NCBI GenBank assembly: GCA_031363085.1
Contig: JANLTU010000196.1
Span: 53,585-117,584, forward strand
Origin: Gammaproteobacteria bacterium
GTDB taxonomy: Bacteria > Pseudomonadota > Gammaproteobacteria > SG8-11
Reading direction: 5' to 3'
DNA: 64,000 nucleotides
The position numbers are program-made. This document shows positions 51,001 through 60,000 of the stretch, piece after piece. How positions within the stretch are numbered: position 1 is the stretch's first letter; the number at the start of each line of letters is the position of its first letter.

Positions 51001-54000
51001 GGCATGATCGTGTCGGTGCGCGCCAATGTGCGCACCGCCGAAGCGTCGCGCCGTGGGCTTGATGCCGGCCTGAGCGTTTCGTTTCGCGCCGGGGCCATCA
51101 CCGGCATGTTGGTGGTCGGCCTGGGTTTGCTGGGTGTGGCTGGATTTTACGCACTGCTGACCACGCTGGGCGGGGCGGGCATGCCGGATCTGGCACCGCT
51201 GGTCGGATTCGCTTTCGGCGGTTCGCTGATTTCCATCTTCGCGCGCCTGGGCGGCGGTATTTTCACCAAGGGTGCGGACGTAGGCGCCGACTTGGTCGGC
51301 AAAGTCGAGGCCGGCATCCCGGAAGACGACCCACGCAATCCGGCGGTGATTGCCGACAACGTCGGCGACAATGTCGGCGACTGCGCCGGCATGGCGGCGG
51401 ACTTGTTCGAGACCTACGCCGTGACCATCATCGCGGCAATGATTCTGGGCGTGTCGATGTTCCCGCAACATGCTGCCGAAGCGGCCTTGTATCCGCTGGT
51501 GCTGGGCGGCGTGTCGGTGCTGGCCTGCGTGCTGGGCACGTTCTTTGTCAAAATCGGCGCCAACCGCAAGGTGATGAACGCGCTGTATCGCGGCGTGATT
51601 GCCGCCGGCGTGCTGTCGGCGGCGGCGTTTTATCCGGTGACAAATTGGGTTATGGGCGGCGTGCCCGAACTCACGACGGCCGCACTTTATAGCGCCGCCT
51701 TGGTTGGGCTCGCGGTCACCGCCTTGTTAATTGTCATCACCGAGTACTACACCGCCACCGAATACGGGCCGGTGCGCGCTGTGGCAGAAGCCTCTGTCAC
51801 CGGACACGCTACCAATATCATCGCGGGATTGGCGTTGTCGATGCGCTCCACCGCAGCACCGGTGTTGGTGGTGTGCGCCGGTATCTACGTGGCGTTCCAC
51901 TTCGCGGGCTTGTATGGCATCGCGGTCGCAGCCACCTCAATGTTGTCGATGACCGGCATCATCGTCGCACTCGATGCTTACGGCCCAGTGACCGACAACG
52001 CCGGTGGTATTGCCGAAATGTCTAATCTGGAACCGGCCGTGCGTGAAACCACCGACACTCTGGACGCGGTGGGCAACACCACCAAGGCCGTCACCAAAGG
52101 CTACGCCATCGGTTCGGCCGGTCTCGCCGCGCTGGTGCTGTTCGCCGACTACACTCGCGAACTGAACCACCATTTAAACCAGACCACGAGTTTTGATCTG
52201 TCCAACCCTAATGTCATTATCGGCCTGTTCATCGGCGGCTTGGTGCCGTATTTCTTCGGCGCGATGGCCTTGGAATCGGTCGGGCGCGCGGCGCAGTCGG
52301 TGGTTGTCGAGGTGCGGCGCCAGTTCCGCGAAATTCCCGGCATCATGACCGGTGAGCAGGCACCCGATTACTCCACCGCAGTGGACATGCTGACGCGCGC
52401 GGCCATCAAAGAAATGGTGCTGCCGGCGTTGTTGCCGGTGTTAACGCCTGTAGCGGTCGGCTTGTTGCTGGGCTCACAGGCATTGGGTGGCTTGCTGGTC
52501 GGATCGATTGTCACCGGCTTGTTTGTCGCCATCTCCATGACCACCGGCGGCGGCGCCTGGGACAACGCCAAGAAGTTCATCGAAACCGGTAATCATGGCG
52601 GCAAGGGTTCGGATGCCCACAAGGCGGCGATCACCGGCGATACCGTCGGCGATCCCTATAAGGACACCGCCGGCCCGGCGATCAACCCGCTGATCAAGAT
52701 CATGAACATCGTCGCGCTGATGATCGTGCCGTTGTTGTAATCCAGCGGTCAGGTTAAGCACGAAGTTATTGACCCCTCCTCATTTTCGAGGAGGGGTGGG
52801 TGCGAAACGATACGGTAGATGTGACCCTAAAGAAGTATTCATTCCCTTTGAGCTGAGTCTAACGAAACTCACACACTTCAACCCCTCCCCTGCCCTTGCC
52901 TCACGTCAACAGCGCAAGTCAAACGACCTTCACCCGTTCATCGACTGTATCCATCGAGTTACGGATTAACGCAGTTCTCTCCGTCCACCGGCAGGTCAAC
53001 ATTCGTGACAATGCCGTCGAGGTCGACAGGCGGTGAATTCAAGCGCGTAATCAAGCGGGTGGCATCGGCGCAGGACAGCGCGGCATTCCCGCCCACTTGC
53101 AACAAGCGCGCGTTCTTCAACACCTCCAGCGCATTCACGTGCCCCACTCCCTGGCCACCCAATTCGTTGCTGGACACATCCAGCTCCGTCAAATTGGTCA
53201 GCGTCGCAAGCGGCGCCACATCGACAATGCGATTGCCGCCCAAGTACAAACGCTCGATATTGGTCAAGCCCGCAAGCGGCCGCACATCGACAATTTCACT
53301 GTTGTACACCGACAGGTAGACCACGTTCGATAGGCCCGCCAACGACGCCAAGTTGCTGACCTTGGTGTCATTCAGATACAAACTGGTCAGCGCCGTCAGC
53401 CCGGCCAACAGGCTGATATCGCTGACCGGGTTACCACTGAGCGACAGGTAAGTCAGCTTGGTGAGCGCAGCCAGCGGCTTGAGATTGGCGATGCGATTGG
53501 CGTCTAACGCCAGATAGCTCAGACCGGTGAGCCCGCTCAGCTTGTTCAGGTCGTCGATACGGTTGCTACGCAGCGACAGGTTCGTGACATTTTCCAGCCA
53601 TTCCAGGCCCGACAAATTAGCGATATCCAGCTCGTTGCAAACCAGGATACCGGCTACTTCGTCGCCATACACCCAGCCGTTAATCGCCGCTTCACCATTG
53701 ATGCATTGCTGTAACCCGGCGTCGGGAAACAGGCCGGACAGGCGCTTGTTATGCGGCGTGACCACCCGTTGCTCGGACATAAAACCTTCGCCACCGACAT
53801 TCACCGCCGCCACCCGGTACGCGTACTTGCTGTTATTGGTTAACCCGTTGAACACGTAGGGTGCAACGGCGTTGGGAACTTTACTAAATTTAGTGTCAAC
53901 ACCGGTCGCGAGTTTCCAGTACACCGTGTAAGACTCCGCGCCCGGCACCTGCGTCCAACCCAAGGTGATGCGTTTGTCCTCGCCAATCGTCACGTTGATG

Positions 54001-57000: not shown

Positions 57001-60000
57001 TCGTGCACATACGGGGAGGTGGCGTGGACAATTTTATTAGTGCTACCCGGGTTCGTTCCGACACGCTGCCAGTAAAGGTTGTACCACACCGCATCGGCGA
57101 CTTGCGGCCAAGTCAGCGTCACGTTTTGTTTACCCGCTGTGGCCGTCATCTGACCACTAGGCGCTGCCACGCCTTCTTGCGCAGCTTCGCTGTGCGCAAG
57201 CGGCGCGATCATGCACAAGGTCACCGCCCATACCAGAAGTCGGAATGCTCGCATCATTTCCTTGCTTGAAACACTTACAAGTGTAAGTCGTTGGAGGTGG
57301 AGCGCATCGCACGCGACTGGACAACCTGATCGCGGCAAAGCATAGCGCATAGTACGGTGCGACCCCAAGTTTAGGCGTGATGCAATTCACGCGCATCGAC
57401 GCCGCATGGTCAGGCGCGCGTGCGCATTGCATTGGCGCCTGACGCGAGCCATGCTTCGCGAAATGCAAATACCGATGCGGCCGTCATACCCAAATATCAA
57501 ACGCAAAAAAACCGCGTGCCGATTCCTGCAACGAAATCTGCTGTGCAGTTTTTTCGCGCTGCTGGTCTATGCGCAAATCGCTCCGGCAGTCACAGCCGAA
57601 GCGCCGCAACATCGGCCTAAAATTGGTTTGGCCTTGGGTGGCGGCGGCGCGCGCGGGTTGGCCCATATCGGTGTGCTCAAAGTGCTGGAAGAATTGAACG
57701 TGCCCATCGACTACATCGCCGGCACCAGCTCGGGCGCGGTGATCGGTGGCATGTACGCGGCGGGATTGACACCCGACCAGATTGAAGCGCGCATCGTTGG
57801 CATCGACTGGGACGACATGTTGTCCGACCGGCTTGCGCGCCGCGAGCTTTCCTACCGACGCAAGCAAAACGACCGCAATTATCTCTTTCCGGTGGAGTTA
57901 GGCATGCGTGGTTTCCGGCCGATTTTTCCGCGCGGACTGATCGCCGGGCAGAAGGTCGGATTCTTTTTGCGCTCAGCCACGCTGCGCGCGGCGGGCGTCA
58001 CCGATTTTGATCGCCTCGCGGTGCCGTTTCGGGCGGTGGCCACCGATATTGAAACCGGCGCGCCGGTGGTGCTGGGCAGCGGCGATCTGGCGGCAGCGAT
58101 GCAGGCCAGCATGGCCGTGCCCGGTGTTTTTTCGCCGCTGGAAATCGGTGGCCGGCTGTTGGTGGACGGCGGCATGTCGGCGAACGTGCCGGTGAATACC
58201 GTACGTGCCATGGGCGCGGATATCATCATCGCGGTGAATATTTCTGCACCGCTGCTCAACCGCCAACAATTGGAGTCTATTGTTGACATTTCTGACCAGA
58301 CGCTGTCGCTGCTGTCGCTGAAGACCAATCAACAGCAATTAATGCAACTGCACGGCGACGATATTTTGATCACGCCCGACCTCTCCGCGATCGGCACCAT
58401 GCAATTTGAACGTGGCACGGAAGCCGTCGCCGCCGGCACCACAGCGGCGACGGCGCAAGCGCCGTTGTTGCGTAATCTTAGCGCCGCGCCCAAGGAGTAC
58501 ACCCGTTACCTGCGCCGCCAGCGCACCAAACTGGCAGCGTTGGCGCGCGTGGATTTCATTAATATCGACAAGCCCGAGCGTGTCTCCGAGGAGATCATTG
58601 CCCGGCGCCTGGCAACCACCCCCGGCGGACTATTGGACATCGAGACGCTGGGCGACGATTTGACGCGTATTTATGATCTGGGCGACTTCGAACGCGTGAA
58701 TTTTCGCGTGCTGCACACCGAGGCCGGCGAAGGCTTGCAAATCGAGGCGCAGGAAAAATCCTGGGGGCCGAACTACCTGCGTTTCGGTTTTAATCTGAGC
58801 GACGACTTCGAAGGCGACAACCGTTCTAACATTTTAATCAATTACACCCGCACCTGGGTCAACCCCTTGGGCGGCGAATGGAAAAATGAATTCAGTATCG
58901 GACGCACGCGCAAAGTATTCACGGAATTTTATCAACCTCTGGACCCATTCAGCGTGTGGTTTGTCGCCCCGCATGCGCAATACAATCAGGACACCCGCGA
59001 TGTCTACGACGGCGATAGCCGCGTTGCACAATACGCAACCAAGACCTCCGAGGTCGGCTTCGACACCGGCCTGCAATTGGGTAAACACGGCGAAATCCGC
59101 TTTGGCTTGTTACGCGATTGGGTCAAGGCCGCGCCGCGCGTGGGCGCCACCGGTCTACCGGAATTCAATATTCGCCAGGGCGCGTACACCGCCAGCGTCG
59201 CCTATGACCGTATTGATGACGTGAACTTTCCGCGCAACGGCATCCTGTTGCATAGCCGCCTGTTTATGGCACGCAAGGAACTGGGCGCCGACACCACCTA
59301 CGACAAGATTGACATTAACTGGTTGACCGCCTTCACTTACAACACCCACACCATGTTCGCCAGCGCGGAACTGGGCACTAATCTCAATAACCAACTACCG
59401 TTTTACGACCTGTTTACACTGGGCGGGTTTCAATATTTATCCGGTTACCACACTGCACAACTCAGCGGCAAATATCTGGCTTTCGGTCGTCTGGTGTATT
59501 ACGAACGCGTCGGTCATTTGCCCAAAGCGGCAGGCAACGGCCTGTATTTCGGCGCCTCGTTGGAAGCAGGCAACGTGTGGGACCGGCGTGTGGATGTTGC
59601 GCTCACCGATGTGCGCAAGTCGATCTCGTTGTTTGCCAGCGCCGATACCAGCGTGGGTCCGCTGTATTTTGCCTACGGACTCAGCGACGGCGGCAACTAC
59701 ATGTTTTATTTGTTTCTCGGTCGGACGTTTTAGCGCACCGGCACCACACGCACAAAATCGCCGTGCTGCTGCATCATATTATCCCGGCATTAATTTTTAT
59801 CCGTTTGCGCCGGCGTGTCTTTGCGTTTAGGTTTTTTGCCACACCCTGAAAGGATTAATTTTTATGTCTGATACACCCAAACCGATCCGCGAAATCCGCA
59901 TCAATCCGATTGTGCCAAGCGAGTCGGTGCTGGTCGCGACCGCACGCGGCCTGCGGCCGAAAAAAGCCGAAGCGCCGGCTGCGCGCGACACTCGCCACCA

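What the first reader, a model, noticed from the sequence alone, without database searches (positions are those of the whole stretch)
52959..57257. Secreted protein with 13 fibronectin-III domains in tandem and an internalin-like LRR domain
A run of ~13 FN3 modules of ~95 aa each (…YYYR..A.N.GGES…) is followed by 10 or more 22-aa LRRs. This eukaryote-like adhesin architecture is encoded convergently to hppA and divergently next to a PlpD-like lipase autotransporter. It suggests a host- or surface-interaction locus. The FN3 modules are diverged from one another at protein level, so the array is old rather than recently amplified.
Basis: seen in the sequence. Interest (0 to 1): 0.5.

Follow-up and report, generated by a model that had tools for sequence, protein, structure and literature searches.

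The report
Long-stalked secreted FN3–LRR binding protein
This is a real, conserved gene from an uncultured groundwater gammaproteobacterium that encodes a 150 kDa exported protein: a rod of 13 fibronectin-III domains carrying an internalin-like leucine-rich-repeat binding head at its far end; it is an uncharacterised variant of a familiar kind of bacterial surface protein, with no sign of host-derived or recently transferred DNA.

Summary
Window 52959..57257 (-) is one intact ORF with a Sec signal peptide, 13 tandem FN3 modules and a C-terminal internalin-class LRR domain. Two details need correcting. The modules are 87-88 aa, not about 95. There are 7 canonical 22-aa LRRs plus one irregular terminal repeat, not 10 or more.

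The array is ancient. Modules share about 40% aa and 51% nt identity, and module i matches module i in orthologues of 52-57% identity. dN/dS is 0.11-0.13 along the whole gene, so this is not an assembly artefact.

AlphaFold models (pLDDT 91-92) match Listeria internalins for the head and fibronectin FN3 triplets for the stalk. The protein is still not an internalin. The head is C-terminal, has no Ig-like inter-repeat domain, and carries two invariant Cys pairs and an invariant tail, SPPVDxD..N.D..G.NC..P.

The same capped head occurs in many unnamed metagenomic proteins with 0-13 FN3 modules, most of them lipoproteins. This is the longest-stalk form, and it lacks a lipobox.

Codon usage is native. 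Linkage to the PlpD-like gene holds only in close relatives (57% identity or more).

Best reading: an exported, non-enzymatic stalk-and-head binding protein with a conserved, unknown ligand. Host interaction and eukaryotic origin are unsupported. Interest is modest.

The parts
52959..57257 (-). Complete CDS including the stop codon: 1432 aa from the first ATG, or 1431 aa from the conserved second ATG at 57254. The mature protein is about 150 kDa with pI 5.8.
57189..57257 (-). Sec signal peptide, aa 1-23 (MMRAFRLLVWAVTLCMIAPLAHS|EA). It has an AxS/AxG signal peptidase I site. It has no canonical lipobox: position -1 before Cys15 is Leu, and that Cys is missing in P0014 and P0015.
   Evidence: Assigned from sequence features; SignalP was not available.
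56904..57167 (-). FN3 module 1 (aa 31-118), the most divergent module
56640..56903 (-). FN3 module 2 (aa 119-206)
56379..56639 (-). FN3 module 3 (aa 207-293)
56118..56378 (-). FN3 module 4 (aa 294-380)
55854..56117 (-). FN3 module 5 (aa 381-468)
55590..55853 (-). FN3 module 6 (aa 469-556)
55329..55589 (-). FN3 module 7 (aa 557-643)
55065..55328 (-). FN3 module 8 (aa 644-731)
54804..55064 (-). FN3 module 9 (aa 732-818)
54540..54803 (-). FN3 module 10 (aa 819-906)
54279..54539 (-). FN3 module 11 (aa 907-993)
54015..54278 (-). FN3 module 12 (aa 994-1081)
53751..54014 (-). FN3 module 13 (aa 1082-1169). It joins the head through the conserved junction TPHN.(R/K)LSGLF.D.
53586..53750 (-). Internalin-like helical N-cap of the LRR head (aa 1170-1224), LFPDAGLQQC...ILVC, with the invariant Cys pair C1185/C1207
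53124..53585 (-). Seven canonical 22-residue SDS22/internalin-class LRRs (aa 1225-1378). Tyr residues line the concave face, and that face is conserved.
52962..53123 (-). Irregular last repeat plus C-cap and tail (aa 1379-1432): ..GGQGVGHV..L..GGN.ALSC....SPPVDLDG..N.D....GENCVNP. It holds the invariant Cys pair C1396/C1429. The tail is the low-confidence part of the model (pLDDT about 64).

Best explanation
The gene encodes a non-enzymatic, Sec-exported 'stalk-and-head' binding protein.

Shown by the analysis:
- A cleavable N-terminal signal peptide, and no other hydrophobic segment or sorting signal.
- Thirteen directly abutting FN3 domains joined by short Pro-rich junctions (..TLA|PDAP..).
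- A C-terminal internalin-class LRR solenoid. Its concave, Tyr-lined face is markedly more conserved than its convex face.
- Four Cys in the mature protein, all in the head, forming two invariant pairs in the N-cap and the C-cap.

Inferred:
- After Sec export and signal peptidase I cleavage, the two Cys pairs form cap disulfides in the oxidising periplasm.
- The 13 FN3 domains form a semi-rigid rod of roughly 45-50 nm, assuming 3.5-4 nm per domain. That is too long to stand upright in a periplasm, so the protein most likely leaves the cell, probably through a type II system.
- The rod acts as a spacer that presents the LRR head. The head binds a conserved ligand, most likely a protein, on its concave face.

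Most relatives carrying the same head are lipoproteins, anchored at the N-terminus with 0-13 FN3 spacers. That fits a polarity of 'anchor - spacer - distal head'. The clade in this window has lost, or never had, the lipid anchor. Its version would therefore be either released (a matrix or bridging protein) or held non-covalently.
For: Architecture and signal peptide.

FN3 fold and extended three-domain arrangement: pLDDT 92.5, pTM 0.80; fibronectin FN10-12, TM 0.60-0.63.

Head fold: pLDDT 91.2, pTM 0.83; InlB LRR TMt 0.89, rmsd 2.2 A over 201 residues; InlA, InlF, InlC2 and InlH at E = 1e-17 to 1e-13. Sequence match to internalins, Chlorobium Roco LRR and SDS22.

Conserved concave face: (entropy 0.83 against 1.27, Mann-Whitney p = 0.006).

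Invariant Cys pairs and tail.

Purifying selection on every module and on the head (dN/dS 0.03-0.25; 0.11-0.13 overall).

Fixed 13-module count and positional orthology.

Head family with a variable FN3 count and frequent lipoboxes.

No catalytic domain, TPS domain or C-terminal sorting domain.
Against: No localisation, secretion-system or ligand data exist. Crossing of the outer membrane is pure inference, because the MAG's secretion systems could not be inspected.

The query clade has no recognisable anchor, so 'surface-displayed' is not shown.

The disulfides are inferred from invariant, co-occurring Cys residues, not from model coordinates. The C-terminal tail is the least confident part of the model (pLDDT about 64).

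Rod rigidity rests on the short Pro-rich junctions and on a three-domain AF2 model only.
Confidence: 0.6

Rival explanations
1. It is an envelope-internal protein. It stays in the periplasm, lying along or tethered to the outer membrane or peptidoglycan, and its LRR head binds one of the cell's own envelope components. It would be structural or regulatory rather than an adhesin.
For: Only a Sec signal is present, with no recognisable outer-membrane translocation signal. Most relatives with the same head are lipoproteins with small residues at +2, and in Gram-negative bacteria such lipoproteins face the periplasm by default. The conserved concave face suits an invariant self ligand.
Against: A stalk of 13 abutting FN3 domains (about 45-50 nm) is roughly twice the width of a typical periplasm. 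The stalk length is strictly conserved, which suggests it must span a distance. The query clade lacks the lipid anchor.
Confidence: 0.2
2. It is a host-interaction adhesin or invasin that acts like a Listeria internalin on a eukaryotic host such as a protist, and it is functionally coupled to the neighbouring PlpD-like lipase autotransporter.
For: The cap and LRR are internalin-like. The divergent patatin-Omp85 neighbour is retained from 100% down to 57% identity, even where the other flank has changed. The neighbour is a true PlpD homologue.
Against: The pairing is lost in the 52% and 38-39% orthologues. Nothing else in the window is virulence-like. The source genomes are uncultured groundwater/environmental Gammaproteobacteria. 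The binding face is conserved, not diversifying as expected in a host arms race. The defining internalin features fail the membership test.
Confidence: 0.12
3. It is an artefact: a chimeric ORF produced by mis-assembly across repeats, or a decaying pseudogene.
For: The architecture is highly repetitive, and the window probably comes from a metagenome-assembled genome.
Against: The repeats share only 41-60% nt identity and TRF finds no DNA tandem repeat. An identical protein exists in an independent assembly, and collinear orthologues of 1411-1478 aa lie on more than 15 contigs and 3 MAGs. dN/dS is 0.11-0.13 with no stop codon or frameshift.
Confidence: 0.01

Closest known systems
Listeria internalins (InlA, InlB, InlH/InlC2, InlF)
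   Same: Both have a signal peptide, a helical N-cap beginning (I/L)FPD, and 22-residue SDS22-class LRRs forming a curved solenoid. Internalins are the best PDB fold matches (InlB LRR TMt 0.89, rmsd 2.2 A) and match strongly in sequence (InlA 5e-60). Ligand binding on the concave face is the established mode for InlA and InlB (general knowledge).
   Different: The domain order is inverted: the head is at the C-terminus behind a 13-FN3 stalk. No Ig-like inter-repeat domain follows the LRR. There is no LPXTG, GW or WxL anchor. Two Cys pairs and a conserved SPPVDxD...NC..P tail cap the solenoid, whereas internalin caps have no such Cys pairs. The organism is a Gram-negative environmental bacterium. 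NCBIfam internalin models score 23-106 bits against cut-offs of 1050-1600.
Streptococcal LRR lipoproteins Slr / Blr
   Same: These are N-terminally lipid-anchored bacterial surface proteins whose internalin-related LRR horseshoe binds an extracellular protein; for Slr that protein is collagen I (PMC3105044). Most relatives carrying this head are likewise lipoproteins.
   Different: Slr has no FN3 stalk and none of the Cys-capped head signature. The protein in this window has no lipobox. No sequence comparison with Slr was run here; the resemblance is architectural.
LRR domain of Chlorobium tepidum Roco protein (PDB 5il7, 6hlu)
   Same: It is the highest-scoring solved sequence relative of the repeats (E = 1e-90, with multiple overlapping matches), and the fold match has rmsd 1.5 A over 200 residues.
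   Different: Roco is a cytoplasmic LRR-Roc-COR GTPase. It has no signal peptide, caps with Cys pairs or FN3 array. The similarity is at the level of repeat class only.
Tandem FN3 arrays of large bacterial secreted proteins, and of fibronectin or titin
   Same: Both have a seven-strand FN3 fold and head-to-tail extended arrays. Fibronectin FN10-12 superposes on modules 1-3 at TM 0.60-0.63. Many metagenomic proteins share the same YxxYW...YYYRV.A.N..GES module type.
   Different: Here the array is not attached to an enzyme, RHS toxin, cadherin or autotransporter. Its module number (13) and order are fixed across lineages.

Membership tests
Fibronectin type III domain (Pfam PF00041) | Match to the fn3 profile above the gathering score, and a seven-strand beta-sandwich fold | tested here: met
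   The whole protein scores 232.6 bits against a cut-off of 25. Scanned alone, 10 of 13 modules match, and the other 3 are homologous to them by internal alignment. AF2 models show seven strands per module and match FN3 triplets in the PDB.
SDS22/internalin-class leucine-rich repeats | 22-residue repeat with LxxLxLxxN(x)I...; curved solenoid with a parallel beta-sheet on the concave side | tested here: met
   Seven in-register 22-aa units. LRR_4 9e-22 and LRR_8 1.5e-10. Matches to InlA, InlB, Roco and PPP1R7. The AF2 model has one short strand every 22 residues.
Listeria internalin family | Helical N-terminal cap directly preceding the LRR | tested here: met
   The InlB alignment covers query head residues 17-209 and InlB residues 32-229, including the cap. 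The AF2 model has a helix at 99-112 of the fragment, and the fold matches InlB cap+LRR.
Listeria internalin family | Ig-like inter-repeat (IR) domain fused to the C-terminal end of the LRR | tested here: not met
   The LRR is followed by only about 55 residues (one helix plus coil, ending at the stop codon). No beta-sandwich is predicted there and no Pfam LRR_adjacent or Ig hit falls there.
Listeria internalin family | N-terminal LRR domain with a C-terminal cell-wall anchor (LPXTG, GW modules or WxL), or a small secreted form | tested here: not met
   The LRR lies at the extreme C-terminus after 1139 aa of FN3. There is no LPXTG, GW or WxL hit and no C-terminal hydrophobic segment. NCBIfam internalin models score far below their cut-offs (106 against 1600).
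Bacterial lipoprotein | Lipobox [LVI][ASTVI][GAS]C at the end of the signal peptide | tested here: not met
   The query has VTLC, with Leu at -1. That Cys is replaced or absent in orthologues P0014, P0015 and P0017. By contrast, P0019, P0022 and at least 27 of 42 wider-family members have a canonical lipobox. LipoP and SignalP were not available.
Two-partner / type V secretion substrate of the neighbouring Omp85-family protein | N-terminal TPS domain (Pfam Haemagg_act) in the substrate, or a covalent beta-barrel | tested here: not met
   No TPS, autotransporter or barrel domain appears among the Pfam or NCBIfam hits. The N-terminus runs straight into FN3-1. The neighbour is a self-contained PlpD-type protein.
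C-terminal sorting-signal proteins (PEP-CTERM, GlyGly-CTERM, MYXO-CTERM, T9SS CTD) | C-terminal sorting motif plus a TM helix, or a T9SS beta-sandwich CTD | tested here: not met
   No such NCBIfam or Pfam model matches at the C-terminus. The only hydrophobic 19-mer windows lie in the signal peptide.
Cys-capped FN3-LRR head family (uncharacterised; delineated here) | N-cap F.D..L..C[VI]...(W).Y.(D/H)E(V/L).G/.L.C; C-cap N.(I/L)GG.G.G.V..L....L..N...SC; and a tail (SPP)VD.D...D....G.NC..P at the extreme C-terminus, preceded by one or more FN3 | tested here: met
   All signature residues are invariant in the orthologue alignments. A profile of the 85-aa C-cap finds 195 cluster representatives at E <= 1e-10. 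Among the best 150 representatives plus ten earlier session hits that I scanned with them, 63 carry the full cap, 57 of them at the C-terminus. Of 42 examined, 35 have both Cys pairs.

The most novel reading that the evidence does not exclude
The Cys-capped LRR head with its invariant SPPVDxD...NC..P tail would define an undescribed, widespread family of environmental bacterial surface receptors. In this family the number of FN3 spacers (0-13) acts as a molecular ruler. The strictly conserved 13-module version here would project the head about 50 nm to engage a specific partner outside the cell's own envelope, for example another cell, an episymbiont or a protist, or a filament or sheath. The retained divergent pairing with a PlpD-type lipase in this clade would then reflect a contact-then-lipolysis module.
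Probability: 0.12. Interest if true: 0.55.

Novelty: new variant of a known kind. Interest (0 to 1): 0.3.

Why it matters
If the reading is right, this protein is a clean natural example of an 'anchor or no anchor - ruler - head' design. It has a fixed-length, Cys-free FN3 rod and a disulfide-capped internalin-type binding domain with a conserved binding face.

It also belongs to a sizeable family seen almost only in metagenomes (hundreds of 50%-identity clusters). The family has no name, no dedicated Pfam or NCBIfam model for its caps, and no known ligand.

That is useful for annotation: these proteins are currently called 'titin', 'internalin A' or 'fibronectin type 3 domain-containing protein'. 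It also shows that internalin-class LRR heads are not specific to pathogens. It does not open a long-standing question, and nothing in the architecture would surprise a specialist.

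Tried and rejected
1. Two-module (175-aa / 525-nt) super-repeat. It was suggested by the 525-nt spacings in the repeat finder and by the alternating 87/88-aa module lengths. Even-distance module pairs are not significantly more alike than odd-distance pairs (p = 0.11 for modules 6-12; p = 0.32 for all 13). Dropped.

2. Lipoprotein anchoring of the query. Rejected: the lipobox is non-canonical and its Cys is not conserved.

3. Substrate of the neighbouring Omp85-family protein. Rejected: no TPS domain, and the linkage is lost in more distant orthologues.

4. Recent horizontal transfer or mobile origin. Target GC is 0.599, GC3 0.724 and codon-usage distance 0.055. Window genes give 0.569±0.036, 0.66±0.06 and 0.084±0.022. 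There are no tRNAs. Plasmid and phage collections hold only generic internalin-class hits of 40% identity or less. PHROG hits are FN3 decorations of tail proteins, so they are domain-level only.

5. Promoter and terminator scan. Counts were no higher than in shuffled sequence.

6. Naming and taxonomy of the wider head family. Cluster look-ups returned no names. The profile word-index search returned mostly short fragments, with only two named sources: an Acidiferrobacterales MAG, and a hydrothermal-vent metagenome record tagged NITROSPINAE.

7. The afdb50 fold library was not available.

8. The literature search found no paper on this architecture.

It was redone as alignment A2.

Full report

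Yes. Window 52959..57257 on the minus strand is one uninterrupted reading frame. It begins ATG-ATG just downstream of an AAGGA Shine-Dalgarno sequence. The second ATG (57254) is probably the true start. Two orthologous loci read ATA-ATG at that position, and a 100%-identical database protein starts at the second Met. All residue numbers below count from the first ATG.

The N-terminus MMRAFRLLVWAVTLCMIAPLAHS|EAAQ looks like a signal peptidase I signal peptide. It is the only hydrophobic stretch in the protein.

The motifs Y.[ILV]YW and Y.Y[RQLW] each occur exactly 13 times, at a spacing of 87-88 residues. So there are 13 modules, each 87-88 aa rather than about 95.
- Pfam fn3 matches the whole protein at 232.6 bits, E = 3.8e-70.
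- Ten of the 13 modules match fn3 when scanned one at a time.
- All 13 share eight invariant positions.
- An AlphaFold2 model of modules 1-3 includes the most divergent module. It has pLDDT 92.5 and pTM 0.80, with seven strands per module.
- That model superposes on three-domain FN3 fragments of fibronectin, LAR and tenascin.

The C-terminal 263 residues hit LRR_4, LRR_8 and LRR_9. I count seven canonical 22-residue repeats and one irregular terminal repeat.

The stated neighbours are correct. hppA (H+-pyrophosphatase) lies at 50719-52740 (+), convergent with the gene. A patatin+Omp85 gene lies at 57406-59733 (+), divergent from it. Its passenger matches the PlpD crystal structure sequence 5fqu at 4e-80.

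**2. Artefact or real gene?**

It is a real gene. The modules share only 24-54% amino-acid identity (mean 40%) and 41-60% nucleotide identity (mean 51%). TRF finds no tandem DNA repeat in the gene, and the repeat finder returns only diverged copies. The assembler therefore had nothing to collapse or fuse.

An identical protein occurs in an independent assembly. Collinear orthologues of 1411-1478 aa (74-83% identity) lie on more than a dozen contigs, and further ones occur at 52-57% and 38-39% identity. Three species-representative MAGs of uncultured Gammaproteobacteria carry the gene at 76-79% identity; at least one is from groundwater.

Against those three loci, dN/dS is 0.11-0.13 over the whole gene. 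It is 0.03-0.25 for each of the 13 modules and 0.09-0.13 for the head. Every module is therefore maintained by selection.

**3. Age of the array**

In orthologues of 57% and 52% identity (P0015, P0017), module i of the query finds module i as its best match in 12 of 13 cases. The reciprocal test gives 13 of 13 and 12 of 13. The 13-module array was therefore already fixed before these lineages split, and it has not been homogenised or reshuffled since.

In the 38-39% clade the signal has eroded. That clade has 12 modules of about 92 aa, an N-terminal disordered linker and one LRR fewer.

A suspected two-module super-repeat did not survive a permutation test.

**4. The head**

The 263-aa head matches three groups of solved proteins by sequence:
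- the Chlorobium Roco LRR (1e-90, through multiple overlapping matches);
- InlA (5e-60) and InlB (5e-31, including the cap);
- eukaryotic SDS22/PPP1R7 (5e-23).

This places it in the 22-residue SDS22/internalin repeat class.

An AlphaFold2 model of FN3-13 plus the head has pLDDT 91.2 and pTM 0.83. Its best PDB fold matches are InlF, InlA, InlC2, InlB and InlH (E = 4e-17 to 1e-13). The InlB cap+LRR superposes at TMt 0.89 and rmsd 2.2 A over 201 residues. 'Internalin-like' is therefore justified for the cap and the solenoid.

The protein nevertheless fails the family definition of an internalin:
- The head is C-terminal rather than N-terminal.
- No Ig-like inter-repeat domain follows it.
- There is no LPXTG, GW or WxL anchor.
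- NCBIfam internalin models score 23-106 bits against cut-offs of 1050-1600.

The head has its own signature. Two Cys in the N-cap (C1185, C1207) and two in the C-cap and tail (C1396, C1429) are invariant. So is the terminal motif SPPVDxD..N.D....G.NC..P. These four are the only Cys in the mature protein; the 1139-residue stalk has none. I read them as two cap disulfides formed after export.

Across 16 orthologues, the solvent-exposed concave-face positions of the seven repeats are much more conserved than the convex and other exposed positions. Mean column entropy is 0.83 against 1.27 (Mann-Whitney p = 0.006). Among orthologues of 55% identity or more, the concave face is nearly as conserved as the hydrophobic core. 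It carries a ladder of Tyr residues. This pattern points to a conserved ligand rather than an arms race.

**5. The wider family**

A profile of the 85-residue C-cap was searched against 1.84 billion cluster representatives. It found 1826 proteins at E <= 1e-3 and 195 at E <= 1e-10.

- 63 carry the full cap, 57 of them at the extreme C-terminus.
- They have 0-13 FN3 modules upstream, most often one.
- The 13-module orthologue group to which this window's protein belongs is the longest. The next longest have 10 and 9 modules.

Of 42 members examined, 35 have both Cys pairs and at least 27 have a canonical lipobox, often followed by a Gly/Ser-rich linker. None has a curated name. The only taxonomic labels recovered were 'Gammaproteobacteria bacterium', an Acidiferrobacterales MAG, and a hydrothermal-vent metagenome record tagged NITROSPINAE.

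The general plan of the family is therefore lipid anchor, then FN3 spacer(s), then a capped LRR head. The clade in this window deviates by having no lipobox. Its sequence VTLC has Leu at -1, and the Cys is not conserved in P0014, P0015 or P0017. One sub-clade at 38-39% identity (P0019, P0022) does have a lipobox.

**6. Context and origin**

The target has GC 0.599, GC3 0.724 and a codon-usage distance to the other window genes of 0.055. The 35 large window ORFs I compared, the target included, give 0.569±0.036, 0.66±0.06 and 0.084±0.022. By these measures the gene is compositionally native.

There are no tRNA genes in the window. Plasmid and phage collections contain only generic internalin-class relatives of 40% identity or less. 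PHROG hits are FN3 decorations of tail proteins.

The rest of the window is ordinary chromosome: valS, chemotaxis genes, ABC transporters, msrA, a phosphonate-binding protein and a galT-like gene. It also holds several other large secreted beta-sandwich proteins.

Synteny varies with distance:
- The order PlpD-like / target / hppA / UPF0176 is kept in the 76-79% loci.
- The divergent patatin-Omp85 neighbour is still present at 57% identity, where the other flank has become a TetR gene.
- At 52% identity the neighbours are sdhA and an ABC ATPase.
- At 38-39% identity they are DUF1631 and a pseudouridine synthase.

The PlpD pairing is thus lineage-level synteny, not a conserved functional module. 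The protein also has no TPS domain that would make it a substrate of an Omp85-type transporter.

**7. Mechanism**

Shown:
- a cleavable signal peptide;
- 13 abutting FN3 domains joined by short Pro-rich junctions (..TLA|PDAP..);
- an internalin-class solenoid with a conserved concave face;
- no catalytic, anchoring or sorting domain.

Inferred:
- The protein is exported by Sec and its caps are locked by disulfides.
- The FN3 array forms a rod of roughly 45-50 nm, using the textbook 3.5-4 nm per FN3 domain.
- The rod acts as a fixed-length spacer, and the distal head binds a conserved ligand, most likely a protein.

Because the rod is about twice the width of a periplasm and its length is strictly conserved, I favour an extracellular location. 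The likely route is type II secretion, which could not be tested here. The protein would be either released or held non-covalently.

The main rival is a periplasmic, envelope-internal role (confidence 0.2). The host-adhesin-plus-lipase reading comes next (0.12). An artefact is effectively excluded (0.01).

**8. Verdict**

Relative to what is known, this is a new variant of a familiar kind. It is an internalin-class LRR binding domain mounted, in inverted order, on a long FN3 stalk. It belongs to a sizeable, unnamed, metagenome-only family defined by Cys-bearing caps and a conserved C-terminal tail.

It is worth a family-level annotation and perhaps a structural or biochemical follow-up. It is not surprising to a specialist, so I score interest at 0.3.

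Noticed in passing
window 57252-57257: The gene has two adjacent ATG codons. L002 and L003 read ATA-ATG there, and the 100%-identical database protein starts at the second Met. The conserved start is therefore 57254, and the AAGGA Shine-Dalgarno sequence at 57259-57263 is better spaced for that codon.
   Followed up: partly
window 57315-57390: A block of about 75 nt in the 148-nt divergent intergenic region between the target and the plpD-like gene is conserved in L001-L003 (GTGAATTGCATCACGCC..AACTTGGG..TACTATGCGCTATGCTTTG..). It could be a shared promoter or operator, or simply limited divergence. The generic sigma-70 scan did not flag it.
   Followed up: partly
window 57406-59733 (+): A 775-aa patatin + Omp85 protein. 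Its passenger matches P. aeruginosa PlpD (PDB 5fqu) at 4e-80, so it is a genuine type Vd-like lipase autotransporter. It is kept next to the FN3-LRR gene only in relatives of 57% identity or more.
   Followed up: partly
window 8401-12813 (-): A 1470-aa ORF with an M4 thermolysin-like metalloprotease (FTP propeptide, Peptidase_M4 and M4_C) and an InhA-like MAM domain, followed by a long uncharacterised C-terminal region.
   Followed up: no
window 28462-30951 (+) and 42874-44433 (-): Two more large beta-sandwich proteins: an 829-aa protein with three Big_7 and two fn3 stretches, and a 519-aa protein with He_PIG, fn3 and RCC1 repeats. The organism seems rich in multi-domain extracytoplasmic proteins.
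   Followed up: no
window 61054-62121 (+): A 355-aa ORF with no Pfam or NCBIfam hit and the lowest GC (0.50) and GC3 (0.525) among the large ORFs of the window. In L003 the gene directly after the PlpD-like gene is a weak SNase-like protein, with the galT-like gene beyond it; in this window the galT-like gene comes first and this ORF follows it.
   Followed up: no
window 24845-27001 (-), 15057-16748 (+), 23715-24848 (-): Three sizeable ORFs (718, 563 and 377 aa) have no Pfam match at E <= 1e-5. Whether they are real genes was not examined.
   Followed up: no
L005 and L006 (loci of the 38-39% orthologues): In both distant loci the FN3-LRR gene is divergent from a DUF1631 gene and convergent with an RluA-type pseudouridine synthase. 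A BufA1 / MbnB-TglH / HvfC_N (bufferin-like RiPP) cluster lies a few kb downstream.
   Followed up: no
window 52775-52798: A GC-rich hairpin (CCCCTCCTCATTTTCGAGGAGGGG) sits just after the hppA stop codon, in the 218-nt gap between the convergent hppA and FN3-LRR genes. It may be a bidirectional terminator. The simple terminator scan did not list it.
   Followed up: no
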